Source: Alphaproteobacteria bacterium (GTDB taxonomy: Bacteria; Pseudomonadota; Alphaproteobacteria; GCA-2731375). Taken from it: a stretch of DNA of 64,000 bases. The translations under genes were made by a program, and so were the position numbers. The notes under the pieces are model-generated. The model was not told where the DNA came from and made no database searches. It saw only the letters and a list, made by a program, of their open reading frames with translations. Of this stretch, positions 10,391 to 57,024 are shown piece by piece. Positions within the stretch are counted from its first letter, which is position 1. Every line of letters begins with the position of its first letter. The DNA lies in assembly GCA_965225945.1 (NCBI GenBank), contig CBDDBZ010000038.1, positions 128,001-192,000 on the forward strand, in the 5' to 3' direction.

Positions 10391-12487
10391 CTACTCGGGC
10401 GCCGTCAAGATCTGGACCCGGGCCTCGCTGCGCCGGCCGAGCGCGTCGATCAACACGAGCTCGGAAAATCCCGGACCGTCGACCCGCCACGCCGCCCGGC
10501 GAGCCCAGCGCGCGCTCGAGATCGGCCGGCCGTCCACCAGCCAGGTGAGCGGCCGCCGGCCGCCCTCGGCCTCGAGCGCGATTGCACCGTCGTCGCGGGG
10601 TCGAGGCAACACCGCCCGGTCGCGCGGATGGACGATCCGGGGCGGCGGGCCGGCGTGGACCCGGGCCGATCCGCGGCCACCGAGGCGGCGGAGCGCCGGG
10701 GGCAGGCCAGCGGCGGCCATGGCGCTGGCGCCCGGCGGGGGAATTGCCGCCGGCGCCGTGCTCGCCGGCAGTTGATCGAACACCCGGTACAGCAACGGCG
10801 CCGCGGTATTGACGCCGAAGTGGCCCGGCAACGGCGCGCCGTCGGGTCGGCCGACCCACACGCCGACCGTGTGATCGGCGGTGAAGCCGATCGCCCAGGC
10901 GTCACGGAACCCGTAGGAAGTGCCGGTCTTGTGGGCGATGCGTCGTCCCGCCGCGCGTCTTCCGCCGACGGCGTTCATGCTCCGGAGGATGCGGACGACC
11001 TGCCAGCGGGCGAGCGGGCGAAGTAGCGGCTCCCTCGCCGCCACGTTTCCCGGCGCGTCGGCGAGATGGCGCAGCGGGCGGACCCGCCCGTCGCTCGCCA
11101 GCGCGGCATAGAGCCGGACCAAATCCTCCAGCGTGATCCCGACCCCGCCGAGCGCCACCGCCAGACCCGGCCGCGCGTCGGGGGCGCCGAGGGCCAGGGC
11201 GATGCCTTCGCGCCGCAGCCGTTCGACGAAGGCGACCGGGCCCAACCTGTCGAGCAGCGCCACCGCCGGCACGTTCAGCGACAGGCGCAGGGCCTCCGCC
11301 AGGCTGATCTCGCCATAATGCCGGTCCATGAAGTTGGCCGGCGCGTAGTCGCCGAACTGGGTTGGCGCGTCCTCGACGATCGTCGCGGGGTGGGCGAGGC
11401 CGCGATCGAAGGCGAGGCCATAGATGATCGGCTTCAGGGTGGAACCCGGGGAGCGGACGGCGCGGGCGAAATCGACCCGGCCGTGACGCGTCGCATCGTG
11501 GAAGTCGGCGCTTCCGACGTGGGCCCGAACCGCGCGGCCAGCGTTGGCGACGACCAGAATCGCCACGTTGCCCGCCTGACCCACCTCGCGTGCCCAATCG
11601 CGGTCCATGGTTTGCAAGCGGCGCTGCAACACCGCGTCGAGGGTGGCGCGCACGACCGTGCCGTCGGGCGTGCCGGCACGCAGGCGATCGGCGAGATGGG
11701 GTGCCAGGAAGGCGGTCCGGCGGCGCGAGCGGCCCACCGGCTCGCGACGGGCCAAGGCGATCTCCGCCTTGGCGTAGCCCGCCCGCTCAGCCACCCGTGC
11801 CAACACCAGGTCCCGAACCGTTCGCGCCGCCGCCGGCGCGCGGTCGGGGCGGAGCCGGCCGGGCGCCCTCGGCAGGGCCACCAGCAAGGCCGCCTCGCCG
11901 GCCGTCAGCGCCTTCGGCTCGCGCCCGAAGTAGGCGCGCGAGGCCGCGCGCACGCCTTCCAGATTGCCGCCGAAGGGGGCGAGCGTCAGATACATGTCGA
12001 GGATCTCGTCCTTGGTGTGCCGCCGCTCGAGCTGGAGGGCGCGGAACATCTCGACCAGCTTGGCAGCCAGGCCGCGCGGACGCGGTCCCAGCAAGCGCGC
12101 CGTCTGCATGGTAAGGGTGGAGGCGCCGGAGACGATCCGGCCCGCCACCACGGCCTGTCCCGCCGCCCGCGCCAAAGCCAGCGGATCGACGCCCGGGTGA
12201 TCCCGGAAGCGCTTGTCCTCGAAGGCGATCAGCATCCGGATGTAGCGCGGATCGACCTCGCCGGCCCGGGTCGGCAGGCGAGCCATCCCGTCCGCGCTCA
12301 GATAGGACCGCAGCAGCCGGCCCTCCCGGTCGACGACCTCGGTCGAGAGGCGTTCGAGGCGGGAGAGGTCGGGCAGATAAACCGAATCGAGCAGCCGAAA
12401 GCCACCGAGCGCCAGGAGGCCGATCGCCGCCACCGCCAGGCCCGAGGCCGAGAGCCGGCCTCGGGAACTTTTGAGTCCGACTCTCAA
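10391..12487 (-). CDS. pbpC: Penicillin-binding protein 1C (transglycosylase/transpeptidase)
   Basis: EDKRF..HPGVDP, SGASTLTMQTAR, SPGSTLKP, SLN, KTGTSYGFRDAW; probable TTG start overlapping the stop of the upstream alpha-2-macroglobulin gene. Confidence 0.9.
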   Translation of the reverse strand: MRVGLKSSRGRLSASGLAVAAIGLLALGGFRLLDSVYLPDLSRLERLSTEVVDREGRLLRSYLSADGMARLPTRAGEVDPRYIRMLIAFEDKRFRDHPGVDPLALARAAGQAVVAGRIVSGASTLTMQTARLLGPRPRGLAAKLVEMFRALQLERRHTKDEILDMYLTLAPFGGNLEGVRAASRAYFGREPKALTAGEAALLVALPRAPGRLRPDRAPAAARTVRDLVLARVAERAGYAKAEIALARREPVGRSRRRTAFLAPHLADRLRAGTPDGTVVRATLDAVLQRRLQTMDRDWAREVGQAGNVAILVVANAGRAVRAHVGSADFHDATRHGRVDFARAVRSPGSTLKPIIYGLAFDRGLAHPATIVEDAPTQFGDYAPANFMDRHYGEISLAEALRLSLNVPAVALLDRLGPVAFVERLRREGIALALGAPDARPGLAVALGGVGITLEDLVRLYAALASDGRVRPLRHLADAPGNVAAREPLLRPLARWQVVRILRSMNAVGGRRAAGRRIAHKTGTSYGFRDAWAIGFTADHTVGVWVGRPDGAPLPGHFGVNTAAPLLYRVFDQLPASTAPAAIPPPGASAMAAAGLPPALRRLGGRGSARVHAGPPPRIVHPRDRAVLPRPRDDGAIALEAEGGRRPLTWLVDGRPISSARWARRAAWRVDGPGFSELVLIDALGRRSEARVQILTAPE

Positions 12488-13848
12488 CGCGTGATCTCCA
12501 GCCACCCCGTCGGCCCGCGCGCGTGATAGCGCGGCTTGTACATGTCCTCGACGAAACTGCCGGGGTTGACGAAGCGGCCCGGCGTCACCGCGCGGGCGAC
12601 ATAGGCGACGGCGAAGCGGCGGCGATTGCCCCGGATGTCGAGCGCCGCGACATAGCGGTCGTCCCGCGCCGCCTCGAAGGCGGTGCGGCTCAACGGCGGC
12701 AGGAAGGTGAAGCCTCGTTTTTGGGTGCCGCCGAGGGCCGCGTTCTCGATCTCGAGCCCCGCCGGCAATAGGTCGACGACCAGCACCTCCCGCTCGCCGG
12801 ATGCCTTCGCCTCGCCCTCGACCAGCACCACCAGCCGATCGTTCCGCCGGATGCTCGCCGGGTCGACCTCGCCGCCGTCGAGGCTGAAATAGCGCCGCAG
12901 AATTGTGAAGCCGTTCTCGACCGCCTCGGGCGGCGTCGAGGGCACGCCGCGCCGGCTCTCGATGACCCGCACCGGATGGTCGCTCCGGTTCCGGATCGCC
13001 ACGCCTTCGGCGTCGTCGACCGCGAGGCGCACGCGGATCGGCTTGCCGGGGGAGCTCCGGGGCGTGCCGTCGATGGCGACGTCGAGCGCGCCGACGGCGT
13101 CGGTGAAGGCGTTCGTCGCCAACAGCAGCCAAGCCTGCTCCTGGGTGGAGAACCAGCGGCGCTGGTCGAATTGGCTCTCGATCAGCTCGGCCACCCGTTG
13201 ACGCCGCGCCGGCGTCGTCGAGAGCTCGGCCAGCAACGTCGCCAGCGCCGCGCCGTCGCGAAGGTCGGAGCCATAGTCTCGGATCGCCAACCCCTTCGGC
13301 CTTCGCTGGCGGAGTGCCGCGGCGAACAACGGCTCGGCCCGCGCCGCCTCGCCCAGGATGGTGAGCGCGCCCGCCACATGACCTAGCGCCAACCGTGTCT
13401 GCAGCCGCGCCGTGTAGTTGTCGGCGAAGTAGCGCGCCTCGCTCGCCTTCACCGCGCCGACGCGGGCGAGCGTGTAGAGGGCGTAGGCCCGGGCATGGAG
13501 CCCGCTGTTTGAGCGCCGCGCGTTGTAGCGGACCAGCCAGTTCTTGGCATGGTCGTAAGCCGCCGCCGGCACCGTGTGGCCGCGCTCTCGCGCCCGGGTC
13601 AGAAAGTCGAAGGCATAGGCGGTGAGCCAGGCATGGGAAACGCCGAAGGATTGCCAGACGGCGAAGGCACCGTCGGCGCGCTGGCGATCGAGCACGCGGG
13701 TGATGGCGCGGTCGATCCGGCGCTGCTGCGCCAAGCGGCCGGGCGCCACGCCCCAACTCGTCTGCAGGCCCGCCGCCACCAGGGTCGGGAGCGCGCGGGA
13801 AATCGTCTGTTCCGTGCAGCCGTAGGGATAGTCCCGCAGGCTCGCCAA
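12484..13848 (-). pseudogene. Bacterial alpha-2-macroglobulin, C-terminal remnant (3' exon of the intron)
   Basis: Thioester motif YPYGCTEQ, YGS.LRD, STQE.AW, VDLLPAGLEIEN, RDDRYVAA, VEDMY.P; upstream of pbpC as usual; 5' part absent from the window. Confidence 0.88.
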
Positions 13849-14076
13849 GTTACGGTAGGAATGCGCATTGCTGCGCACCCCCCGCGGTTACGGTAGGAAT
13901 GCGCATTGCTGCGCACCCCCCGCGGTTACGGTAGGAATGCGCATTGCTGCGCACCCCCCGCAGTTACGGTAGGAATGCGCATTGCTGCGCACCCCCCGCG
14001 GTTACGGTAGGAATGCGCATTGCTGCGCACCCCCCGCGGTTACGGTAGGAATGCGCATTGCTGCGCACCCCCCGCG
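13849..14076 (-). repeat. Six tandem 38-bp units, each a group II intron domain VI/3' end
   Basis: Unit (+) gttacggtaggaatgcgcattgctgcgcaccccccgcg starts at 13849, 13887, 13925, 13963, 14001, 14039; one variant base (a at 13962); no spacers. Confidence 0.97.
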
Positions 14077-15957
14077 CAGATCCGGACGTGGTCGTTGAAC
14101 CATCCGGCTCCTACCTCGGGTGCTTGACGGCAAACCGCTGGTCCGGCCATGGGTGGCGGATGGAGGCGCGTGGCCACAGGATTTCGGTCATGCGCTCCAG
14201 TCGCTTCCAACTAAATCGGGCTCGCTGGGACCGGCGGCGTAGCGCCCGCATCCACCGGCGTTGCAGCCTGCGGAGGAACGCACGGATGAACCGGCCTGAC
14301 CCTGGGACGGCAAAGTAGTTGAGCCAGCCATTGCAGACTCGCCCCAGCCACCTACCAACTTCCCAGATGTCGTGGTGCCAGCGCTTGCGGAGCACCTCGT
14401 CGATGCGCGCCAGGGTCCTGTTGACCCGTTTGGCGACCGGTTTGCGACCAAGCCGAAAGCGTCCTCTCAGGGTCGTCGTGCAATAGTGCGTGAGGCCCAG
14501 AAAGTCGAAAGTCTCCGGCTTGCCCACCCCGCGCTGGCGCCGGTTCAAATCCGCGAACCGGCCAAACTCCACGAGGCGGGTCTTGTCCTGGTGGAGGCTG
14601 AGACCGAACCGGGCCAGCCTCTCCCGAACGTCGCGGAGGTACCGCTCCGCATCCCGCTTGTGTTGGAACCCGACAACGATATCGTCAGCGTAACGGACGA
14701 TGATCGCTTCGCCATCCGGGACGTTCGGGCGCCATTTCTTGTGGAACCACAAGTCGAGCACGTAATGCAGGAACACGTTCGCCAAGACGGGGGAGACTAT
14801 TGCCCCCTGCGGCGTGCCCATACCCGTATCTGCCCATGACCCACTCTCTATGACGCCGGCGTTCAGCCATTTCCAGATCAGACGGATGACCCGCCTGTCT
14901 CCGATGCGGTGCTCTAGGAACCTGATCAACCAATCCCGCGGGATCGTGTCGAAGTACGCCCGGAGGTCTGCATCGACTATCCAGCTGACCTTGCGCCGTT
15001 TTATCCCGAAGGCCAGGGCATCGAGCGCATCGTGCGCCCCCCGCCCCGGTCGGAACCCGTAGCTGAAGCCAAGAAACACCACCTCGTAGATCGGTGTCAG
15101 GATCACATCCACAACCGCCTTCTGGACGACCTTGTCCTCCAGCGCCGCGATCCCGAGCGGTCGTGTCCCCCCGTCCGGCTTGGGTATCTCTACCCGCCGA
15201 ACCGGCGGCGCCCGGTACGCTCCCCCTCTGTGCAGGCGCCGGTGCAGGTCGAGCAGGCGCTCATCCAGACCCTCGCCGTACATGTCCCACGTAACGCCGT
15301 CGACACCGGCTGCTGCGTCCTTCTTCAATGCGAAGTAGGCCGCACCGAGCGCGTCCGGCGTAATGTGGTGGAAGAGCGCAGTGAGACCTTCCTTCGGGTT
15401 TCTCTCTGCAGCTTTCCGTATCCGGGCCGCCGCCTGTGGCACGCTTACCCGACACTGGGTTCGGCGCGTGCTTTGGCAATCCGGATTCCCCTTGGTTGAG
15501 GCCCTTTCCTCCGGCGACTCCGCAGAAGCTCGCGCTCCCTTGTTCGCCGCCCTCACAGGTCGTATGGCCTCATCCGACTTCTTCAAACCGTTCATCATAG
15601 GCTTCGGTTTTCTCCATTCCCTACGCGGCCCCTTTACGACAACCGGGGCAGTTTGAAGACCTCCCAGGGTCCCAACAGAAGGCGTGCGAACGTGCATGGG
15701 TTCTCTGACACCGCGGGGCTCGCCGACATCTCACCAAAACGACGCCTGCGATATTGCCTTCGACCGATCTGAAAGCCTCGGCACCCCGGACCATCGCTTT
15801 TACGGTGCTCAATAGCCCTGCCCATCCATGCCGCTACCGACGCTTCGCCTGCCCCCTCACGGGAGCCAACGCACGGCTCGCGGAGAAACGTGGTTCGGTT
15901 ACTCCTTCGTTCCGGGGGACTTGCACCCCCTACCTTCTGCCAGTTCGCCTGGCGCAC
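14039..15957 (-). mobile_element. Group II intron, complete inner copy (IIB-type, probably bacterial class E)
   Basis: 5' end GTGCG at 15957; DV GAGCCGGATG...CACGTCCGGATC right after the ORF stop; DVI hairpin ending AAC. Confidence 0.93.
14111..15598 (-). CDS. ltrA: Group II intron reverse transcriptase/maturase, no endonuclease domain
   Basis: AAGVDG, IPKPDGGTRPLGI, SYGFRPGR, GTPQGAIVSPVLANVFL, YADD, FDFLG, C-terminal HPWP. Confidence 0.95.
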   Translation of the reverse strand: MMNGLKKSDEAIRPVRAANKGARASAESPEERASTKGNPDCQSTRRTQCRVSVPQAAARIRKAAERNPKEGLTALFHHITPDALGAAYFALKKDAAAGVDGVTWDMYGEGLDERLLDLHRRLHRGGAYRAPPVRRVEIPKPDGGTRPLGIAALEDKVVQKAVVDVILTPIYEVVFLGFSYGFRPGRGAHDALDALAFGIKRRKVSWIVDADLRAYFDTIPRDWLIRFLEHRIGDRRVIRLIWKWLNAGVIESGSWADTGMGTPQGAIVSPVLANVFLHYVLDLWFHKKWRPNVPDGEAIIVRYADDIVVGFQHKRDAERYLRDVRERLARFGLSLHQDKTRLVEFGRFADLNRRQRGVGKPETFDFLGLTHYCTTTLRGRFRLGRKPVAKRVNRTLARIDEVLRKRWHHDIWEVGRWLGRVCNGWLNYFAVPGSGRFIRAFLRRLQRRWMRALRRRSQRARFSWKRLERMTEILWPRASIRHPWPDQRFAVKHPR

Positions 15958-16804
15958 CAGATCCGGACGTGGTCGTTGAACCATCCGGCTCCTACCTCGG
16001 GTGCTTGACGGCAAACCGCTGGTCCGGCCATGGGTGGCGGATGGAGGCGCGTGGCCACAGGATTTCGGTCATGCGCTCCAGTCGCTTCCAACTAAATCGG
16101 GCTCGCTGGGACCGGCGGCGTAGCGCCCGCATCCACCGGCGTTGCAGCCTGCGGAGGAACGCACGGATGAACCGGCCTGACCCTGGGACGGCAAAGTAGT
16201 TGAGCCAGCCATTGCAGACTCGCCCCAGCCACCTACCAACTTCCCAGATGTCGTGGTGCCAGCGCTTGCGGAGCACCTCGTCGATGCGCGCCAGGGTCCT
16301 GTTGACCCGTTTGGCGACCGGTTTGCGACCAAGCCGAAAGCGTCCTCTCAGGGTCGTCGTGCAATAGTGCGTGAGGCCCAGAAAGTCGAAAGTCTCCGGC
16401 TTGCCCACCCCGCGCTGGCGCCGGTTCAAATCCGCGAACCGGCCAAACTCCACGAGGCGGGTCTTGTCCTGGTGGAGGCTGAGACCGAACCGGGCCAGCC
16501 TCTCCCGAACGTCGCGGAGGTACCGCTCCGCATCCCGCTTGTGTTGGAACCCGACAACGATATCGTCAGCGTAACGGACGATGATCGCTTCGCCATCCGG
16601 GACGTTCGGGCGCCATTTCTTGTGGAACCACAAGTCGAGCACGTAATGCAGGAACACGTTCGCCAAGACGGGGGAGACTATTGCCCCCTGCGGCGTGCCC
16701 ATACCCGTATCTGCCCATGACCCACTCTCTATGACGCCTGAGTCGGACCCGATTTCCTTGGACACAGAATTGGTTTAATCGAAGTGTCCAAGGAGGACCG
16801 GAAC

Positions 16805-17215
16805 ATGACCGACAATTTTGAGAACAAAGTTGCTGTTGATGGGCCTGTGGTAAACGAGGGCGAGCTTGGCTCGTCCACGTTTTCCCCGGGCCAGGTTTCG
16901 CCGGCAGGCCCGCTGGGACTTGGCCAGCGGTGGACGGTGACGCGCAAGCGTGAGGTTGCCCTGCGGCTTTTGCGTGGCGAGCCGGTGGAACTTTTGTCGC
17001 GGCAGTTGGGCGTGGAGATTTTCCGGCTCGAGCAGTGGCGTGAGAAGGCGATCGCCGGGATCGATGCCTCGCTCAAGGAACGCAAGGGCGATCCGGTAAA
17101 GGCGGAACTGGACATCGCCATGAAGCGGATCGGGGAGTTGATCATGCAGGTGGAACTGCTGGAGGCCAAGACGGAGACGTCCGGCCCTTTGGGGCGGCGG
17201 AGGTCGCGGCGATGA
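16805..17215 (+). CDS. IS3-like transposase OrfA (HTH)
   Basis: RWTVTRKREVALRLLRGE...LSRQLGV; AGGAGG RBS. Confidence 0.8.
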   Translation: MTDNFENKVAVDGPVVNEGELGSSTFSPGQVSPAGPLGLGQRWTVTRKREVALRLLRGEPVELLSRQLGVEIFRLEQWREKAIAGIDASLKERKGDPVKAELDIAMKRIGELIMQVELLEAKTETSGPLGRRRSRR

Positions 17216-18123
17216 GTGCCGCCACCTCTCCCGGCACGGGTTTGGCCTACGGCCTCCAGCGGGTCTGTGCGGCCTGGGGTTTTGCCCGTTCCTCGTTCTA
17301 CGCCATGAAATCCCGGCAGCAGGCCACCGCTGAGCGCCCACCAGCAAAGCGCCGGGGACCGAAGCCCTCGATCTCGGACGAGGCTCTGCTGGTGGCCATC
17401 GAGGCCGACCTGGAGGCATCCCCCTGGGAGGGCGAGGGACACCGCAAGGTCTGGGCTCGGCTTCGGGTCTGTCGTGGCATCCGTGTTTCCCGCAAGCGGG
17501 TGCTCCGGGTGATGCGCGAGAACAACCTGCTCTCGCCCCATCGCTGCCGCCGCCGTGGCGGAAATCCCCATGTCGGTGAGATCATCACCCATGCCCCCAA
17601 CCTCATGTGGGGCACGGACGGCGTTCGGGTGTTCACGGTGGACGACGGCTGGGGCTGGATATTCACCGCCATCGAGCATTGGAACGCCGAGTGCGTCGGC
17701 TGGCATGTGTGCAAGCGAGGCGACCGCTTCGCCGCCCTTCAGCCAATCTCCATGGGGCTTGCGAGGCTGTATGCCTCGACCTCCGCCGGTGCGGCGCGGG
17801 GGCTGGCCTTGCGGATGGATCACGGCTCCCAGTATCTGTCGGACCACTTCACCAACCAGATCAAGTTCTGGGGCATCCAGCCGTCCTACGCCTTCGTCGA
17901 ACAGCCCCAGACCAACGGCGTCGCCGAGAGGTTCAATCGCACGCTCAAGGAACAGATCATCCATGGCCGCATCTACCGCAACATCGCGGAGCTGCGGAAC
18001 GCCGTCCGCGGGTTCGTCGAACAGTACAATGCCCAGTGGATCGTGGAGAAGAACGGCTACCTGAGCCCCGCTCAAGCTCGTCAGGCGTGGCACACCGCGA
18101 TGTCACTCAGGCCCGCCGCATGA
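17212..18123 (+). CDS. IS3-like transposase OrfB (rve DDE)
   Basis: WGTD, DHGSQY, PQTNGVAERFNRTLKE; ATGA overlap with OrfA. Confidence 0.9.
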   Translation: MSAATSPGTGLAYGLQRVCAAWGFARSSFYAMKSRQQATAERPPAKRRGPKPSISDEALLVAIEADLEASPWEGEGHRKVWARLRVCRGIRVSRKRVLRVMRENNLLSPHRCRRRGGNPHVGEIITHAPNLMWGTDGVRVFTVDDGWGWIFTAIEHWNAECVGWHVCKRGDRFAALQPISMGLARLYASTSAGAARGLALRMDHGSQYLSDHFTNQIKFWGIQPSYAFVEQPQTNGVAERFNRTLKEQIIHGRIYRNIAELRNAVRGFVEQYNAQWIVEKNGYLSPAQARQAWHTAMSLRPAA

Positions 18124-18452
18124 GACAAACTTGTGTCCAAGGAACCGGGTGCGATACACTCTCTATGACGCCGGCGTTCAGCCATTTCCAGATCAGACGG
18201 ATGACCCGCCTGTCTCCGATGCGGTGCTCTAGGAACGTGATCAACCAATCCCGCGGGATCGTGTCGAAGTACGCCCGGAGGTCTGCATCGACTATCCAGC
18301 TGACCTTGCGCCGTTCTATCCCGAAGGCCAGGGCATCGAGCGCATCGTGCGCCCCCCGCCCCGGTCGGAACCCGTAGCTGAAGCCAAGAAACACCACCTC
18401 GTAGATCGGTGTCAGGATCACATCCACAACCGCCTTCTGGACGACCTTGTCC

Positions 18453-19499
18453 GATTGAGCAACCTGATGTGTGGAAATTCGGAACGCCGTTGATCAGTCA
18501 TCCTCTGCTTTCCAAGTGATGTAGGGTTTTTCGGTGGTTTCCCATTTCTCGTCGATTTCGACGAGGATGGCGGTGACCAGACGTTCGAGCGAGGCCTCGT
18601 TGGGAAAGACCCTGACCTTTACGGTGCGGCGCTTGATCTCCTGCTGGATGGATCGCTCCATGGGGTTCGAGGTTCGCATGCGCTTTTGGTGGCGCTCGGG
18701 CAGGGCGAAGACGGCGAGGCCCTCGGGGATCGCCGTCTCCAGCCAATCGGCGAGCTTGGGGGCGCTGTCGCGGTAGGCCGCCACCAGATGGCCCAGCTCG
18801 GCCTCGGCGGCCTTGCCGTCGGCGGCGTTCCAGACCCGGCGCAGCTCCTTGCCGATGGCCTTTCGGATGGCGAGGTTGGGGGCGTGATGGATGGCGTTTT
18901 GAGCCAGATGGTACTGACAGCGCTGCCAGACGGCGCCGCCGAGGACGGCCTTGCGCGCGGCGCCGAGGCCTGGATGATCATCGGAAACGATATAGGCGAC
19001 ACCGCGCATGCCACCGGCAACCAGGGTCTCCAGGAAGGCGCGCCAGTGCACTTCGGCCTCGGAGAGCGCACAGGAAACACCGAGCACCCGGCGGCGCTGG
19101 TCGGGGCCGATGCCGATCACCGAGAGCACGGCGGCGTCGCGCACCACGCCACCCTCTCGGACTTTCTCATAGCGCGCGTCGAGGAGCAGGTAGCGGATCT
19201 CGCCCAGCGGCCGGTTGCGCCAGGCATCCAGCTCCCCATCCAAGAGCTTGGCGGCGCGGCTGACCTGGCTCGACGACAGGCTCTCCAGGCCGAACTCGCG
19301 CATCACCGCCTCGGCGTCACGGGTGGAGACGCCTTTGATATACATCTCCGCCACGGCCAGCATGACAGCGCGGCAGGAGCGCCGTCCGCGCTCCAGGGCT
19401 TGGGGGTAAAAAGGCGCCTCATGACCGGCGGTCTTGGGAACCTCGAGCCTCACCGTACCGGCCGGGGTGTCGATCTTCTTGGGTCTGGTGCCGTTGGCG
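18453..19499 (-). mobile_element. IS256 family element, 5'-truncated by IS21
   Basis: Transposase ending at 18494: EMYIKGVSTR, LLDARYEKVR, WQRCQYH, RTSNPMER; upstream ANGTRPKKIDTPAG is cut at 19499. Confidence 0.9.
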
Positions 19500-19702
19500 T
19501 GTCAATCGGCGTTGAACATTGACCCCCTATCGGCGTGCAATGTTGACCCCTTTGGGGATGCACGGCGGAGGTCGTACAGGTAGTCCATAGGAGGGGCCCG
19601 CGCGCGGGCCGACGCGCCCACCACGCGGCTGGCGGCGGACCGCGCGTGGGAGGTTCCTGTGGGCCCACCTGGGCGACCGGGCGGCAGGTGGATCGGTTGC
19701 CT

Positions 19703-20431
19703 TTAGGACCGATTCTTGAAGCGCCAGGAGTCGTTTCCGGTCTCGATGATCTCGCAGTGGTGCGTCAGACGATCGAGGAGCGCGGTGGTCATCTTGGCGT
19801 CGCCGAAGACGGACGGCCATTCGCCGAAGGTCAGGTTGGTGGTGACGATGATCGAGGTGCGCTCGTAGAGCCGGCTGACGAGGTGGAACAGCAGCTGGCC
19901 TCCGGTTTGGGCGAAGGGCAGGTAGCCGAGCTCGTCGAGGATGACGAGGTCGCGCCGGGCCAGCTGATCGGCGAGCCGGCCCTGGCGGCCGGCGCGGGCT
20001 TCGGCCTCGAGCCGGTTGACCAGGTCGACGACGTTGAAGAAGCGGCCCCGGGCGCCATCGCGGATGCAGGCCCGCGCGATGGCGACGGCGAGATGGCTCT
20101 TGCCGGTGCCGGTGCCGCCGATCAGCACGGCGTTGCGCTGGTTGGCCAGGAAGCCGCCGACCGCCAACTCGCGGACCAGCGGCTCGTTGACCGGGGTGTC
20201 GGTGAAGTCGAAGTCGGCCAGCTCCTTGGCCAGCGGCAGCTTGGCGCCACTCATCTGGTACTTGATGGATCGCGCCTGCTTGTCGGCGATCTCGGCCTTC
20301 AACAGCTCGCCGATGATTCGCTGCATCGGATGCTGGCGCTTGAGGCCGTCGGCGAGCACCTCGTCGAACGCGTCGCGCATGCCGGCGAGCTTGAGTGCGG
20401 CCATCATCTCCAGGACCTCATGGCGCTCCAT
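19703..20431 (-). CDS. istB: IS21 helper ATPase
   Basis: [29 protein letters not shown]. Confidence 0.95.
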
Positions 20432-21929
20432 GGCCGACCCCCCTCAAGCGGTCGTAGCGGGTGCAATCGGCCACCGGCTCAAAGCGAAGACGCAGGTTCG
20501 CGGGCGTCGGGATCGGCGCCGTCTCGGACGGCTGGCGCCGACGATTGAGGATGTTGAGCACGACGTCGGCGCTGCACACGCCGCCAGCGAGCGCCTCGGC
20601 ACAGGCGGCCTCCACCGCCGCCAGCCCATCCGCCAGCACGGCGGTGAGGATCTCGACCATCTGCCTGTCGCCGTCGTCGTGGCCGGCGAGCCGGACGCGC
20701 ACGCGACCCAGGGCGCCGGGCAGCGCCCAGTCCTTGAACGGCGCGCCGTTACGAAGCGCACCGGGCTTCCTCGCCAGCACGGGCACGTAGTGCCACGGGT
20801 CATAGACGGTCTGGTCGCGGCCGAAGCGCCGGGCATGCTCGGCGACGATCTCGCCGTCCTGGCGGATGACGATGCGATCGGCGTAGGCATGGACCTCGAC
20901 CGGACGGCCGACGGCGCGCGCCGCCACGCTGTACTTGTTGCTGTCGAAGCGCACCAGGCAGGTCTTCGACACCGACGCCGGGACCGCGTGGAAGCCGTCG
21001 AACGGCCCGCGATAGCCGACCAGGGACGGACGCTCGTCCTCGAACACCTGCCAGACAGTCCTGTCCTTGAACACCGGGTGGGGATGACGCCGGGCGTAGG
21101 CGACGCACTGGTCCAAGAGCCAGGCGTTGAGCTCGTCGTAGGTCTTGAAGCGCAGCCGCGGGGTGAAGAACCGACCGCGGATGATCCCGACCTGGTTCTC
21201 GACCTGCCCCTTCTCCCATCCCGCTCCCGGCGTGCATGCTGTCGGTTCGACCAGGTAGTGGCCACACATCTGCACGAAGCGCCGGTTGAACGCGCGCTCC
21301 TTGCCGATGAGGACGGTCTGCACCGCCGTCTTCATGTTGTCGTAGATGCCTCGCCGGCAGGCACCCTGGAACAGCCGGAATGCCCGGTCGTGGGCGTCGA
21401 ACACCATCTCCTGGCTCTCGCGCGGATAAGCGCGGACGAAGAACATTCGGCTGTGGCACAGCCGGACGTGCGCGACCTTGACCTTGGTCGTCACCCCCGC
21501 CAGCACCACGTACTCGTGGCTCCAGTCGAACTGATAGGCCTCGCCCGGCGAGAACACCAACGGCACATAGGTCTGCGCCGTCGATGCCGAACGGCGCCAC
21601 CGCCACGCCTTGGCGTAGCGCCGCACCGCGTCGTAGCCGCCGCCATAGCCCAGACCCTCGAGGGCTTCGGAGATCCGTAGCAGCGTCAGCCGCTCCCGCT
21701 TCGACTTGGTCTCGTTGGCCTCCAGCATCCGCTCCAGCTCGGCCGTCCACGGCCCCAGCTTCGGCATCGGCTGGACCCGCCGGTCGTAGGTGAACGCCGT
21801 CGCCTGCGAACGGATCACCTTGCGCACCGTGTTGCCCGAGACCTTCACGTCCCGCACGATCTCCTTGATCGGCTTCCCCTTGACAAAATACTCCCGCCGG
21901 ATCCGCGCTATCGTCTCCACGACCAACAT
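20418..21929 (-). CDS. istA: IS21 transposase
   Basis: [24 protein letters not shown]. Confidence 0.95.
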
Positions 21930-54479: not shown

Positions 54480-57024
54480 TGTCAATCGGCGTTGAACATT
54501 GACCCCCTATCGGCGTGCAATGTTGACCCCTTTGGGGATGCACGGCGGAGGTCGTACAGGTAGTCCATAGGAGGGGCCCGCGCGCGGGCCGACGCGCCCA
54601 CCACGCGGCTGGCGGCGGACCGCGCGTGGGAGGTTCCTGTGGGCCCACCTGGGCGACCGGGCGGCAGGTGGATCGGTTGCCTTTAGGACCGATTCTTGAA
54701 GCGCCAGGAGTCGTTTCCGGTCTCGATGATCTCGCAGTGGTGCGTCAGACGATCGAGGAGCGCGGTGGTCATCTTGGCGTCGCCGAAGACGGACGGCCAT
54801 TCGCCGAAGGTCAGGTTGGTGGTGACGATGATCGAGGTGCGCTCGTAGAGCCGGCTGACGAGGTGGAACAGCAGCTGGCCTCCGGTTTGGGCGAAGGGCA
54901 GGTAGCCGAGCTCGTCGAGGATGACGAGGTCGCGCCGGGCCAGCTGATCGGCGAGCCGGCCCTGGCGGCCGGCGCGGGCTTCGGCCTCGAGCCGGTTGAC
55001 CAGGTCGACGACGTTGAAGAAGCGGCCCCGGGCGCCATCGCGGATGCAGGCCCGCGCGATGGCGACGGCGAGATGGCTCTTGCCGGTGCCGGTGCCGCCG
55101 ATCAGCACGGCGTTGCGCTGGTTGGCCAGGAAGCCGCCGACCGCCAACTCGCGGACCAGCGGCTCGTTGACCGGGGTGTCGGTGAAGTCGAAGTCGGCCA
55201 GCTCCTTGGCCAGCGGCAGCTTGGCGCCACTCATCTGGTACTTGATGGATCGCGCCTGCTTGTCGGCGATCTCGGCCTTCAACAGCTCGCCGATGATTCG
55301 CTGCATCGGATGCTGGCGCTTGAGGCCGTCGGCGAGCACCTCGTCGAACGCGTCGCGCATGCCGGCGAGCTTGAGTGCGGCCATCATCTCCAGGACCTCA
55401 TGGCGCTCCATGGCCGACCCCCCTCAAGCGGTCGTAGCGGGTGCAATCGGCCACCGGCTCAAAGCGAAGACGCAGGTTCGCGGGCGTCGGGATCGGCGCC
55501 GTCTCGGACGGCTGGCGCCGACGATTGAGGATGTTGAGCACGACGTCGGCGCTGCACACGCCGCCAGCGAGCGCCTCGGCACAGGCGGCCTCCACCGCCG
55601 CCAGCCCATCCGCCAGCACGGCGGTGAGGATCTCGACCATCTGCCTGTCGCCGTCGTCGTGGCCGGCGAGCCGGACGCGCACGCGACCCAGGGCGCCGGG
55701 CAGCGCCCAGTCCTTGAACGGCGCGCCGTTACGAAGCGCACCGGGCTTCCTCGCCAGCACGGGCACGTAGTGCCACGGGTCATAGACGGTCTGGTCGCGG
55801 CCGAAGCGCCGGGCATGCTCGGCGACGATCTCGCCGTCCTGGCGGATGACGATGCGATCGGCGTAGGCATGGACCTCGACCGGACGGCCGACGGCGCGCG
55901 CCGCCACGCTGTACTTGTTGCTGTCGAAGCGCACCAGGCAGGTCTTCGACACCGACGCCGGGACCGCGTGGAAGCCGTCGAACGGCCCGCGATAGCCGAC
56001 CAGGGACGGACGCTCGTCCTCGAACACCTGCCAGACAGTCCTGTCCTTGAACACCGGGTGGGGATGACGCCGGGCGTAGGCGACGCACTGGTCCAAGAGC
56101 CAGGCGTTGAGCTCGTCGTAGGTCTTGAAGCGCAGCCGCGGGGTGAAGAACCGACCGCGGATGATCCCGACCTGGTTCTCGACCTGCCCCTTCTCCCATC
56201 CCGCTCCCGGCGTGCATGCTGTCGGTTCGACCAGGTAGTGGCCACACATCTGCACGAAGCGCCGGTTGAACGCGCGCTCCTTGCCGATGAGGACGGTCTG
56301 CACCGCCGTCTTCATGTTGTCGTAGATGCCTCGCCGGCAGGCACCCTGGAACAGCCGGAATGCCCGGTCGTGGGCGTCGAACACCATCTCCTGGCTCTCG
56401 CGCGGATAAGCGCGGACGAAGAACATTCGGCTGTGGCACAGCCGGACGTGCGCGACCTTGACCTTGGTCGTCACCCCCGCCAGCACCACGTACTCGTGGC
56501 TCCAGTCGAACTGATAGGCCTCGCCCGGCGAGAACACCAACGGCACATAGGTCTGCGCCGTCGATGCCGAACGGCGCCACCGCCACGCCTTGGCGTAGCG
56601 CCGCACCGCGTCGTAGCCGCCGCCATAGCCCAGACCCTCGAGGGCTTCGGAGATCCGTAGCAGCGTCAGCCGCTCCCGCTTCGACTTGGTCTCGTTGGCC
56701 TCCAGCATCCGCTCCAGCTCGGCCGTCCACGGCCCCAGCTTCGGCATCGGCTGGACCCGCCGGTCGTAGGTGAACGCCGTCGCCTGCGAACGGATCACCT
56801 TGCGCACCGTGTTGCGCGAGACCTTCACGTCCCGCACGATCTCCTTGATCGGCTTCCCCTTGACGAAATACTCCCGCCGGATCCGCGCTATCGTCTCCAC
56901 GACCAACATCCCCCACCACCTCGTCCGCCCAAAAACGAGGTGACTTGGACTAGCCAGGCTCAGGGGGTCAAATTTGGACGCCGATCACCCCTCAACAGGG
57001 GTCAACTTTGCACGCCGTTCCACA
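54480..57024 (-). mobile_element. IS21 family element, copy 2 (istA 55398-56909, istB 54683-55411)
   Basis: Direct repeat of 19500-22044 at offset 34980; two substitutions seen near the istA start. Confidence 0.95.

What the first reader, a model, noticed from the sequence alone, without database searches (positions are those of the whole stretch)
15766..15827. The intron's putative EBS1/EBS2 are complementary to its own domain V end
Seen: + strand gatctg at 15766-15771 gives RNA 5'-CAGAUC-3' in GGCUUU-CAGAUC-GGUCGAAGGCAA, the context where IIB introns carry EBS1. It pairs 6/6 with GATCTG at -6..-1 of the self-insertion site. RNA GGAUG (15823-15827), at the expected EBS2 position, pairs with CGTCC at -12..-8 with one U-G wobble. 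This gives a base-pairing mechanism for self-targeting. It also suggests EBS1 could pair in cis with the catalytic DV stem. The EBS assignment is by analogy, not by folding.
Basis: partly seen in the sequence, partly recalled or inferred. Interest (0 to 1): 0.85.

Follow-up and report, generated by a model that had tools for sequence, protein, structure and literature searches.

The report
Group II intron that invades itself

Summary
On the minus strand, an intact 1,919-nt endonuclease-less group II intron (window 15957-14039, Rfam RF02005) sits exactly after ...GGAUCUG of an older copy's domain V/J5-6.

CAGAUC (15771-15766) is the real EBS1. It lies in a hairpin loop whose stem covaries. The equivalent loop covaries with the 5' exon in 43 relatives (0 of 2000 permutations reach the observed value). 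In 23 of 25 distinct insertion sites where the copy's loop could be read, it pairs 6/6 with the 5' exon.

GGAUCUG is conserved at the domain V end in 30 of 42 relatives, so this intron lands in itself and in related introns. In this genome, 8 of 14 intron 5' junctions are self-insertions. Arrays are at least 4 units deep, and up to six tandem domain VI copies are left behind.

The proposed EBS2 (GGAUG, 15827-15823) is not supported. Its match is at chance level and that region shows no covariation. A better EBS2 candidate is AGCGAUG (15798-15792), which gives only 3 pairs with the self site.

Hairpin-directed (IIC-like) targeting was tested and found no support. The cis-pairing idea remains untested.

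Nested intron arrays are already known, so this is a new variant of a known kind.

The parts
14039..15957 (-). Intact inner copy of the intron ('F1'), 1,919 nt. It runs from 5' GUGCG at 15957 through domains I-V to its own domain VI, ending ...CCGUAAC at 14039.
   Evidence: sequence. RF02005 hit 15923-15699, 163.7 bits; unique 5' end; 100% self match; fold of domains V and VI.
15766..15771 (-). EBS1, RNA 5'-CAGAUC-3', in the terminal loop of the hairpin GGCU-UUCAGAUC-GGUC.
   Evidence: structure line. consensus fold (stem columns 149-170 and 150-169 change on both sides). Covariation with the 5' exon; 23 of 25 sites pair 6/6.
15792..15798 (-). Best-supported EBS2 candidate, RNA AGCGAUG, in the 13-nt internal loop on the 5' strand of the Id arm. 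The core GCG (15795-15797) pairs with CG(C/U) at -12..-10.
   Evidence: internal loop against -14..-7 gives 7 of 32 relatives with 5 or more pairs, against 2.59 expected (P=0.008; statistic chosen after seeing the data); variant AGACGAUG pairs 8 bp with its site CATCGTCT. CGC at -12..-10 in 8 of 21 non-domain-V sites, against 4.7% for the null.
15823..15827 (-). Not supported.
   Evidence: P=0.13; P=0.90; 3 such 5-mers in domain I, against 3.5 expected.
14111..15697 (-). Intron-encoded protein ORF (528 aa from the first ATG; the true start is uncertain). Reverse transcriptase plus maturase, with no endonuclease domain. The stop codon abuts domain V.
   Evidence: TIGR04416, 344.9 bits. RVT_1 171-403 and GIIM 426-498.
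14077..14110 (-). Domain V (14110-14079) plus J5/6 UG (14078-14077) of the inner copy. GAUCUG at 14082-14077 is an unoccupied copy of the target.
   Evidence: (21 CGTCCGGATCTG sites in the genome, 8 occupied).
13849..14076 (-). Six tandem 38-nt domain VI units. The first (14076-14039) belongs to the inner copy. The other five are the 3' remains of successively older host copies. The fourth unit starts with U instead of C.
   Evidence: (period 38, 6.0 copies, 98% matches).
15958..15969 (-). Self-insertion site in the outer copy: IBS1 GAUCUG (15963-15958), G at -7, and CGU at -12..-10 (15969-15967).
15958..16738 (-). Outer (host) intron copy, intron nt 1121-1901, ending in domain V plus UG.
   Evidence: C38 144738-143958, 100%.
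18157..18452 (-). Further fragment of the outer copy (intron nt 841-1136). An insertion sequence separates it from the rest, and a second transposon truncates it upstream.
   Evidence: (C38 146452-146157, 99.3%).
16784..18123 (+). Two-ORF insertion sequence (rve-type transposase) that interrupts the outer copy's protein gene.
   Evidence: rve, rve_3, HTH_21.
12487..13848 (-). 3' exon: C-terminal part of an alpha-2-macroglobulin gene (LASLRDYPYGCTEQ...). The matching 5' exon lies on another contig (C31), followed by at least 3 nested units.
   Evidence: (TED_complement, bMG10).

Best explanation
This is an endonuclease-less, IIB-like group II intron retroelement (Rfam RF02005 type).

Its EBS1 loop CAGAUC base-pairs with GAUCUG, the last four bases of domain V plus the UG linker before domain VI. 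That sequence is conserved across its intron class. The excised intron RNA-protein particle therefore reverse-splices into the domain V|VI junction of related introns and of its own copies, and is copied into DNA. That step is inferred from how such introns are known to move.

Each insertion splits the host copy into a domain I-V block upstream and a domain VI downstream. It also brings in a fresh, intact target. Repeated rounds therefore build [I-V]n[VI]n nests.

Homologous recombination between the 1.88-kb blocks then removes units and leaves surplus domain VI repeats (inferred). Upstream recognition is weak: G at -7, and a 3-bp contact of a short EBS2 in the Id internal loop with CG(C/U).

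Splicing must proceed from the innermost copy outwards. Each splice restores GAUCUG|CGCGGG in the next copy out (this follows from the sequence; it has not been shown experimentally).
For: Shown:
- EBS1 is unpaired in a covarying hairpin.
- EBS1-IBS1 covariation: CAGAUC/GAUCUG; a near-identical variant intron with CAGAGU sits at ...ACUCUG; other lineages show GGGUC/GACCC, CCCGU/GCGGG, UCUGCU/AGCAGA, CCAAUG/CGUUGG and UCCAUA/UAUGGA. In 43 distinct metagenomic relatives the mean longest duplex is 5.56 against 3.83 when permuted, and 0 of 2000 permutations reach it.
- There are 28 distinct 5' flanks of this intron, from the window's genome, two handled genomes and named MAG records. Of the 25 with a readable EBS1, 23 pair 6/6 and 2 pair 5/6.
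- 7 of the 28 flanks are domain V ends: its own, four other domain V sequence types (one present in two single-base variants), and one degraded remnant.
- In this genome, of 14 intron 5' junctions, 8 are in its own domain V, 3 are in other introns' domain V, and 3 are elsewhere.
- Arrays: at least 4 units plus 4 domain VI copies at the C38 contig end; at least 3 units on C31; 6 domain VI copies in the window.
- The domain V end is GGAUCUG in 30 of 42 distinct class members and GGGUCUG in 3 more.
- The intact alpha-2-macroglobulin allele ends GGGTCTG at the homologous point.
- A contig of an RNA library (X12) joins the domain V end directly to the intron 5' end.
- Multiple domain VI copies occur only in the genome that has self-nesting. 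All 6 full copies in G002, both copies in G037 and the 5 MAG copies with a readable 3' end have a single domain VI.
Against: - The same-genus genome G002 carries 6 full copies with identical EBS1, EBS2 and domain V end. They differ from this genome's copy at one ribozyme position (241 C/T), yet G002 has no self-insertion. Complementarity therefore permits self-homing but does not force it.
- The self site has C at +1, whereas 18 of 23 other sites have T (hand tally). It is a suboptimal target.
- Base pairing alone under-explains the bias. The genome has 2,259 GG(A/G)TCTG sites and 165 with CG(C/T) upstream, yet 11 of the 14 occupied sites are domain V ends. Selection against genic insertions, local re-insertion near the donor, or the hairpin may contribute.
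- Unit and domain VI counts disagree at several loci (for example 2 units with 1 domain VI on C37).
- Three contigs end inside arrays, so array depths are minimum values.
- No mobility or splicing experiment exists.
Confidence: 0.8

Rival explanations
1. One reading: EBS1 (CAGAUC) plus EBS2 (GGAUG at 15827-15823) together read about 11 bases of the domain V end.
For: The pairing arithmetic is correct for the self site, and for 3 other domain V-derived flanks carrying (C/U)GUCC.
Against: At 21 non-domain-V sites the mean is 2.33 of 5 pairs against 2.03 for the null (P=0.13), and only 1 of the 21 has 5/5. The linker does not covary with the exon in 32 relatives (P=0.90). Three equally good 5-mers exist in domain I, against 3.5 expected. 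The enriched upstream motif is CGC, which mismatches the A of GGAUG.
Confidence: 0.05
2. IIC-like targeting: the particle recognises domain V as a DNA hairpin that mimics a terminator, and the short IBS1 only sets the cut point.
For: - The best PDB relatives of the protein are IIC reverse transcriptases (7uim 156.9, 5hhj 147.1 and 6ar1 146.1 bits, against LtrA 125.9 and the TeI4h protein 117.2).
- The ribozyme is small, at about 470 nt without the ORF.
- Domain V sites are over-represented among occupied sites.
- The alpha-2-macroglobulin site has an 8-bp hairpin in the same register as domain V.
- A sister lineage (2a) sits after a long terminator-like inverted repeat.
Against: The 21 non-domain-V sites show no hairpin enrichment. 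Mean DNA folding energy is -7.16 against -6.54 kcal/mol (P=0.16). A 3' stem end within 6 nt occurs in 48% against 53% for the null. IBS1 is 6 bp, and an EBS2-like contact exists. No class E or F protein structure may exist in the PDB for comparison (recalled, not checked).
Confidence: 0.12
3. One or a few self-insertions, followed by unequal recombination, movement of whole nests as composite introns, or repeat mis-assembly, produced the arrays, rather than many rounds of self-homing.
For: The units are nearly identical (0-7 differences), so events cannot be ordered. Unit and domain VI counts are unequal. Three contigs end in arrays. Composite mobility of twintrons is discussed in PMC2882425 (passages read).
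Against: Exact insertion-type junctions occur at 5 separate loci with different outer contexts: the alpha-2-macroglobulin gene, a 2a-family intron, the C33 locus, the C38 contig end and the window. Simple tandem duplication would give I-VI/I-VI repeats, not [I-V]n[VI]n. An independent RNA-library contig also holds the junction.
Confidence: 0.15
4. EBS1 pairs in cis with the intron's own domain V end and acts as a folding or regulatory switch.
For: The duplex is predicted at -8.4 kcal/mol. Freeing the last four domain V bases costs about 3 kcal/mol, because a G-A mismatch weakens the basal helix.
Against: The GAUCUG end is shared by 30 of 42 class members whose EBS1 loops differ. Only 3 of the 42 have a 6-bp match to their own end, and two of those are this intron and its variant. 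The feature therefore looks like target capture, not a conserved intramolecular pairing. No covariation test is possible within one lineage.
Confidence: 0.07

Closest known systems
Nested group II intron arrays of Methanosarcina acetivorans (Dai & Zimmerly 2003, as summarised in PMC4424553 section 'Twintrons' and PMC2882425 Discussion; the original paper was not held)
   Same: Repeated site-specific homing of introns into other group II introns. Up to five nested copies. Insertions balanced by deletion through homologous recombination. The nest acts as a perpetual homing site.
   Different: Those introns home into intron ORFs (per the paper's title). Here the target is the domain V|VI junction of the ribozyme itself. 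The invader and host are the same element. The decay product is a tandem array of domain VI.
Thermosynechococcus elongatus twintrons (PMC2882425, passages read)
   Same: [quoted passage not shown]
   Different: The target there lies between two start codons in domain IV. The inner introns are ORF-less and of a different family from the host. There is one level of nesting.
Self-invading cox1i1149g2 in lycophyte mitochondria (PMC7049729, abstract and passages read)
   Same: An intron inserted into a copy of itself.
   Different: It is a single ancient organellar event. The inner copy does not splice and has weak EBS-IBS pairing. There are no arrays, and the site is not the domain V end.
Group IIC introns that insert after terminator or attC hairpins (PMC1702495 abstract; PMC4424553 passages)
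   Same: Endonuclease-less, small ribozyme, loose target specificity dominated by a short IBS1, and many ectopic sites.
   Different: Hairpin dependence was tested here and found no support. IBS1 is 6 bp, and an EBS2-like element is present.
Group IIE/IIF introns (PMC3753933, passages read)
   Same: IIB-like introns without an endonuclease. There is an extra stem-loop after the EBS1 hairpin in Id. Relatives have 5-nt domain V loops (my reading of the sequences). EBS1 is decisive, while EBS2 is present but dispensable.
   Different: Class membership could not be tested, because no named reference sequences were available. This intron's own domain V loop reads as 4 or 6 nt.
Clostridium tetani C.te.I1 with repeated domain V/VI units (PMC4424553 passage; PMC4024640 abstract)
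   Same: Several 3' domain repeats lie downstream of a single domain I-IV.
   Different: Those are V+VI repeats used for alternative 3' splicing to different exons. Here the repeats are domain VI only, lie head to tail, and are explained as remnants of nesting.

Membership tests
Group II intron (Rfam RF02005, group-II-D1D4-6) | Covariance-model match above the gathering score | tested here: met
   163.7 bits against a cut-off of 49, full length 1-225; 21 matches in the genome, 20 of them above the cut-off.
Group II intron (general) | 5' GUGYG, domain V hairpin with the AGC triad and a 2-nt bulge, domain VI with a bulged A 7-8 nt from the 3' end | tested here: met
   GUGCG; fold of domain V (GAGCC...GGAUC, AC bulge) and domain VI (bulged A eighth from the end, my reading). 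RF00029 itself does not reach its cut-off on this domain V/VI.
Group II intron (general) | Reverse transcriptase/maturase encoded in domain IV | tested here: met
   TIGR04416, 344.9 bits (cut-off 300). RVT_1 plus GIIM, with nothing after residue 498 of 528.
Group IIC (class C) | Insertion directly downstream of a hairpin (terminator or attC) | tested here: not met
   21 non-domain-V sites show no enrichment (P=0.16).
Group IIC (class C) | No EBS2; IBS1 of only 3-5 bp | tested here: not met
   IBS1 is 6 bp in 23 of 25 sites. An Id internal loop covaries with -14..-7 (post hoc). CGC is enriched at -12..-10 (P=3e-6).
Group IIC (class C) | Protein belongs to the class C clade | tested here: inconclusive
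   the top three PDB hits are IIC proteins, but by a modest margin. No phylogeny with named class references was possible.
Group IIE/IIF (IIB-like, endonuclease-less) | Alpha-prime at the tip of a stem-loop in Id3; 5-nt domain V loop (as listed in PMC3753933) | tested here: inconclusive
   A covarying hairpin follows the EBS1 hairpin. Alpha pairing was only eyeballed. The 5-nt loops are read in relatives, not clearly in this copy.
Twintron / nested intron array | An intron with intact ends lying inside another intron, such that excision restores the host | tested here: met
   the junctions ...GGATCTG|GTGCG and ...CCGTAAC|CGCGGGG. Joining the flanks recreates the uninterrupted V-VI sequence seen in single copies.

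The most novel reading that the evidence does not exclude
The V-J5/6-VI sequence conserved across this intron class (GGAUCUG|YGCGGGGGG) serves as a dedicated, self-renewing landing pad against which several lineages have tuned their EBS1. This intron reads GAUCUG. An ORF-less sister (2b) reads GCGGG six bases downstream.

Because this intron's landing pad is also part of its own catalytic core, two further possibilities follow:
- EBS1 could compete with domain V folding, as a built-in brake or switch.
- Surplus domain VI units could arise not only by deletion of units but also by aborted reverse transcription completed by homology with the resident copy. That would give a ribozyme with several alternative branch sites.
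Probability: 0.2. Interest if true: 0.75.

Novelty: new variant of a known kind. Interest (0 to 1): 0.55.

Why it matters
It gives a clean natural example in which six bases of RNA-DNA pairing account for an intron colonising its own catalytic core, and that of its relatives.

It provides a ready system for three questions:
- Can nested identical ribozymes splice in order?
- Can a distant or alternative domain VI be used?
- How do safe-haven insertion and recombination balance intron load?

It is also a caution for annotation. Pipelines drop nested copies (PMC4028801 and PMC8919778, passages read), and the standard domain V/VI model (RF00029) misses this class.

The host gene here, a single-copy alpha-2-macroglobulin, is split across two contigs by the array and by transposons.

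Tried and rejected
- **IIC-like hairpin targeting.** This was my working idea. I rejected it as the main mechanism.
Rejected.
- **Single-sequence folding of domain I**. It gave z=-0.11 against shuffles and an alternative long helix that partly pairs the EBS1 region. It is uninformative and is overruled by the comparative structure.
- **First version of the EBS2 covariation statistic** (mean longest duplex, 10-nt loop against -16..-7). It was not significant without this intron's own rows (215 of 2000 permutations). Only a narrower statistic, chosen after seeing the data, was significant.
- **Loose regular-expression hunts** for domain V hairpins and for domain V|intron junctions in metagenome loci. 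These gave mostly noise and no further convincing nested cases.
- **EBS3.** Not identified. No column tracked the +1 base by eye.
- **Intron class (E, F or other).** Not resolved. PMC3552965 (parts 1-2 read) gave no usable signatures, and supplements are closed and were not requested.
- **Dai & Zimmerly 2003.** Not held.
- **Literature searches**. They found no description of homing into the domain V|VI junction or of tandem domain VI arrays. This covers only the held library.
- **Read laying**. All runs are contigs. The lack of cover over 15968-16100 and the varying depths say nothing. X1 may be the source sample, so it is not independent.
- **The search of earlier findings.** Closed.
Full report
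**What is at the coordinates**

Read on the minus strand, the window holds a group II intron. It begins with GUGCG at 15957. It matches Rfam RF02005 (group-II-D1D4-6) over 15923-15699 at 163.7 bits, full length.

It encodes a 528-aa reverse transcriptase/maturase with no endonuclease domain (15697-14111; TIGR04416 344.9 bits; RVT_1 and GIIM). Domain V lies at 14110-14079 and is followed by UG. Domain VI lies at 14076-14039.

CAGAUC is the minus-strand reading of 15766-15771, and GGAUG that of 15823-15827. Immediately upstream of the 5' end lies ...CACGUCCGGAUCUG, which is the domain V end plus UG of a second copy (the 31-mer occurs at 14077-14107 and 15958-15988, with 0 expected by chance).

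**Is CAGAUC really EBS1?**

Yes, on three lines of evidence.

- *Structure.* In the Rfam alignment it lies in the loop of the hairpin GGCU-UUCAGAUC-GGUC. An RNAalifold consensus of nine lineages keeps that hairpin. Its inner stem pairs change on both sides (columns 149-170: GC 3, CG 2, UA 1, AU 1), and the EBS1 columns stay unpaired. A single-sequence fold is uninformative (z=-0.11).
- *Covariation with the 5' exon.*
  - A near-identical intron in another assembly has CAGAGU in this loop and sits at ...ACUCUG.
  - Other lineages read GGGUC/GACCC, CCCGU/GCGGG, UCUGCU/AGCAGA, CCAAUG/CGUUGG and UCCAUA/UAUGGA.
  - In 43 distinct relatives from a metagenome scan, the mean longest loop-exon duplex is 5.56, against 3.83 after permuting partners. 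None of 2000 permutations reaches it.
- *Independent insertion sites.* I collected 28 distinct 5' flanks of this intron from the window's genome, two handled genomes and named MAG records. Of the 25 whose copy has a readable EBS1 loop, 23 pair 6/6 (G-U allowed) and 2 pair 5/6.

The intact alpha-2-macroglobulin allele of a same-genus genome reads ...CCGGGTCTG|CTCTCGG at the homologous point. This genome's own 5' exon, on contig C31, ends the same way.

**Is GGAUG EBS2?**

No.

- Five-mers able to pair with CGUCC occur three times in domain I, against 3.5 expected in shuffles.
- At 21 non-domain-V sites, GGAUG forms 2.33 of 5 pairs on average, against 2.03 for 8,672 G(A/G)TCTG sites of the genome (P=0.13).
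- Across 32 non-redundant relatives with a credible 5' boundary, the linker that holds GGAUG shows no excess complementarity to -14..-7 (11 with 5 or more pairs against 12.9 expected; P=0.90).

The 13-nt internal loop on the 5' strand of the Id arm does show an excess. Seven of 32 relatives have 5 or more pairs against 2.59 expected (P=0.008), and four have 6 or more against 0.79 (P=0.005). I chose this statistic after seeing the data; a broader one gave P of about 0.11.

In this intron that loop reads AAGCGAUGG (15798-15792 for AGCGAUG). A variant intron that reads AGACGAUG there sits at CATCGTCT|GGATCTG, which gives 8 pairs.

At this intron's non-domain-V sites, CGC occupies -12..-10 in 8 of 21, against 4.7% for the null (P=3e-6). 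G occupies -7 in 13 of 21, against 26% (P=5e-4). The positions were picked post hoc.

With the self site, this EBS2 makes only three pairs (G-U, C-G, G-C with CGU). Self-recognition therefore rests mainly on EBS1.

**Why domain V?**

Among 42 distinct introns of this class for which both domain I and domains V/VI were on one contig:
- the domain V end plus linker is GGAUCUG in 30 and GGGUCUG in 3;
- domain VI starts YGCGGGGGG in nearly all;
- only 3 have an EBS1 loop with a 6-bp match to their own end, and two of those are this intron and its variant.

The target is thus a class-wide conserved sequence, and this lineage's EBS1 has come to read it.

Consistent with that, 7 of the 28 flanks are domain V ends: its own, four other domain V sequence types (one present in two single-base variants), and one degraded remnant. 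Some of these are in chromosome-level assemblies.

An ORF-less sister element (2b) in this genome has EBS1 CCCGU. It sits after UGCGGG, six bases further into the domain VI of a 2a-family host.

**Self-nesting in this genome**

Of 14 intron 5' junctions, 8 lie in the intron's own domain V end. Two lie in a 2a-family intron, one in a third family, and three elsewhere: the alpha-2-macroglobulin gene, a transposase gene, and one uncharacterised site.

Array sizes:

| Locus | I-V units | Domain VI copies |
|---|---|---|
| C38 contig end | at least 4 | 4 |
| C31 | at least 3, up to the contig end | not reached |
| Window | 1 intact, plus an outer copy broken by two transposons | 6 (period 38, 6.0 copies) |
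| C34 | 1 | 3 |
| C39 | 1 | 3 |
| C37 | 2 | 1 |

The junctions are exactly those expected of insertion (...GGATCTG|GTGCG and ...CCGTAAC|CGCGGGG). Joining the flanks recreates the single-copy sequence seen in G002.

A contig from an RNA library of another study (X12) joins the domain V end to the intron 5' end, with 652 and 212 nt on the two sides. This shows the junction outside this assembly. It does not prove transcription.

Multiple domain VI copies were seen only in this genome. That ties them to self-nesting.

I infer that units are lost by recombination between the 1.88-kb direct repeats, as described for Methanosarcina (PMC4424553). Addition of domain VI alone by aborted cDNA synthesis is an untested alternative.

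**What does not fit neatly**

- The same-genus genome G002 (5 contigs) has six full copies with the same EBS1, EBS2 and domain V end. Only one ribozyme position differs (241 C/T). Yet it has no self-insertion and one domain VI per copy.
- The self site carries C at +1, while 18 of 23 other sites carry T (hand tally). It is a poor target by that criterion.
- The genome has 2,259 GG(A/G)TCTG sites, and 165 also have CG(C/T) at -12..-10. Yet 11 of 14 insertions are in domain V ends.

Possible contributors are purifying selection against genic insertions, re-insertion near the donor locus, or some role of the hairpin. The hairpin hypothesis was tested on the 21 non-domain-V sites and found no support (P=0.16), but the test cannot exclude a contribution at domain V itself.

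**Cis pairing**

The EBS1/GAUCUG duplex is predicted at -8.4 kcal/mol. Freeing the last four domain V bases costs about 3 kcal/mol, because the basal helix carries a G-A mismatch. Pairing in cis is therefore physically possible.

Nothing in the comparative data calls for it, however. The GAUCUG end is shared by relatives with unrelated EBS1 loops.

**Comparison with what is known**

Twintrons and nested arrays formed by introns homing into other introns are established:
- *M. acetivorans*: up to five nested, balanced by recombination (PMC4424553 passage; PMC2882425 Discussion).
- *T. elongatus*: a conserved site in domain IV (PMC2882425).
- A single self-invasion in lycophyte mitochondria (PMC7049729).

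My five literature searches found no description of homing into the domain V|VI junction, of homotypic arrays of this depth in bacteria, or of tandem domain VI remnants. The library is incomplete, and the key 2003 paper was not held.

The class of the intron is unresolved.
- The protein's nearest solved relatives are IIC enzymes.
- The tested IIC features (hairpin targeting, no EBS2, short IBS1) are not met.
- Features listed for IIE/IIF in PMC3753933 (an extra Id stem-loop, 5-nt domain V loops in relatives, a dispensable EBS2) look similar, but were not rigorously tested.

**Verdict**

Its core interpretation, that EBS1 complementarity explains self-insertion, is well supported. The EBS2 half is wrong in both place and substance. 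The cis-pairing idea is open. The phenomenon is a new variant of a known kind.

Noticed in passing
window 13849-14076: Six head-to-tail 38-nt domain VI units, each with its own bulged A and 3' splice sequence. The fourth starts with U instead of C. A single domain I-V block is thus followed by several potential branch and 3' splice sites.
   Followed up: partly
G000 contig C24 about 80,300-81,000 (locus L008) and C33 about 303,950-304,650: An ORF-less relative (2b, about 690 nt) has EBS1 CCCGU. It is inserted after UGCGGG in the 5' strand of a host intron's domain VI and is followed by the rest of that domain VI. The C33 copy is a mosaic with pieces of the main intron's domain VI.
   Followed up: partly
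L002 (G000 C37 about 367,770-367,835); empty site on C33 about 303,750-303,900: The 2a-family intron sits directly after the 3' arm of a 15-bp imperfect inverted repeat (GGGTCATT...AATGACCC). An unoccupied copy of that repeat is followed by CTTTTCTT, so it looks like a terminator. Two other 2a copies share only ...TAGAATGACCC.
   Followed up: no
window 12487-13848 and G000 C31:258001-260174: The single-copy alpha-2-macroglobulin gene is split. Its 5' exon (with at least 3 nested units) ends contig C31. Its 3' exon is in the window, behind an outer intron copy truncated by transposons. This is either a rearrangement or an unresolved assembly path. A PBP1C-type gene (Transgly, Transpeptidase, BiPBP_C) follows downstream.
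   Followed up: partly
window 16784-18123 (+), 18497-19453 (-), 20421-21929 (-): A cluster of transposase genes lies upstream of the intron nest: a two-ORF rve-type element inside the outer intron copy, a Mutator-family transposase, and a Mu-type transposase. The same 24-nt tandem motif is reported at 19505-19550 and at 54485-54530, which suggests a second copy of one element.
   Followed up: no
loci L031-L046: Exact 24-nt matches to this intron's 5' end occur in MAG records labelled Alphaproteobacteria (several), Candidatus Binatia and Arenicellales. This implies horizontal spread. The Binatia and Arenicellales copies are truncated.
   Followed up: no
loci L115, L157: In some metagenome contigs, a class member's 5' end directly follows what looks like another intron's domain VI 3' end (...CCCTACCGCGAC|GTGCG). 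These are tandem rather than nested introns, and the downstream intron's EBS1 does not match that flank.
   Followed up: no
one search run list: Runs holding most of this stretch include sponge metagenomes and metatranscriptomes from several studies. The intron, or its host, seems to recur in that kind of sample.
   Followed up: no
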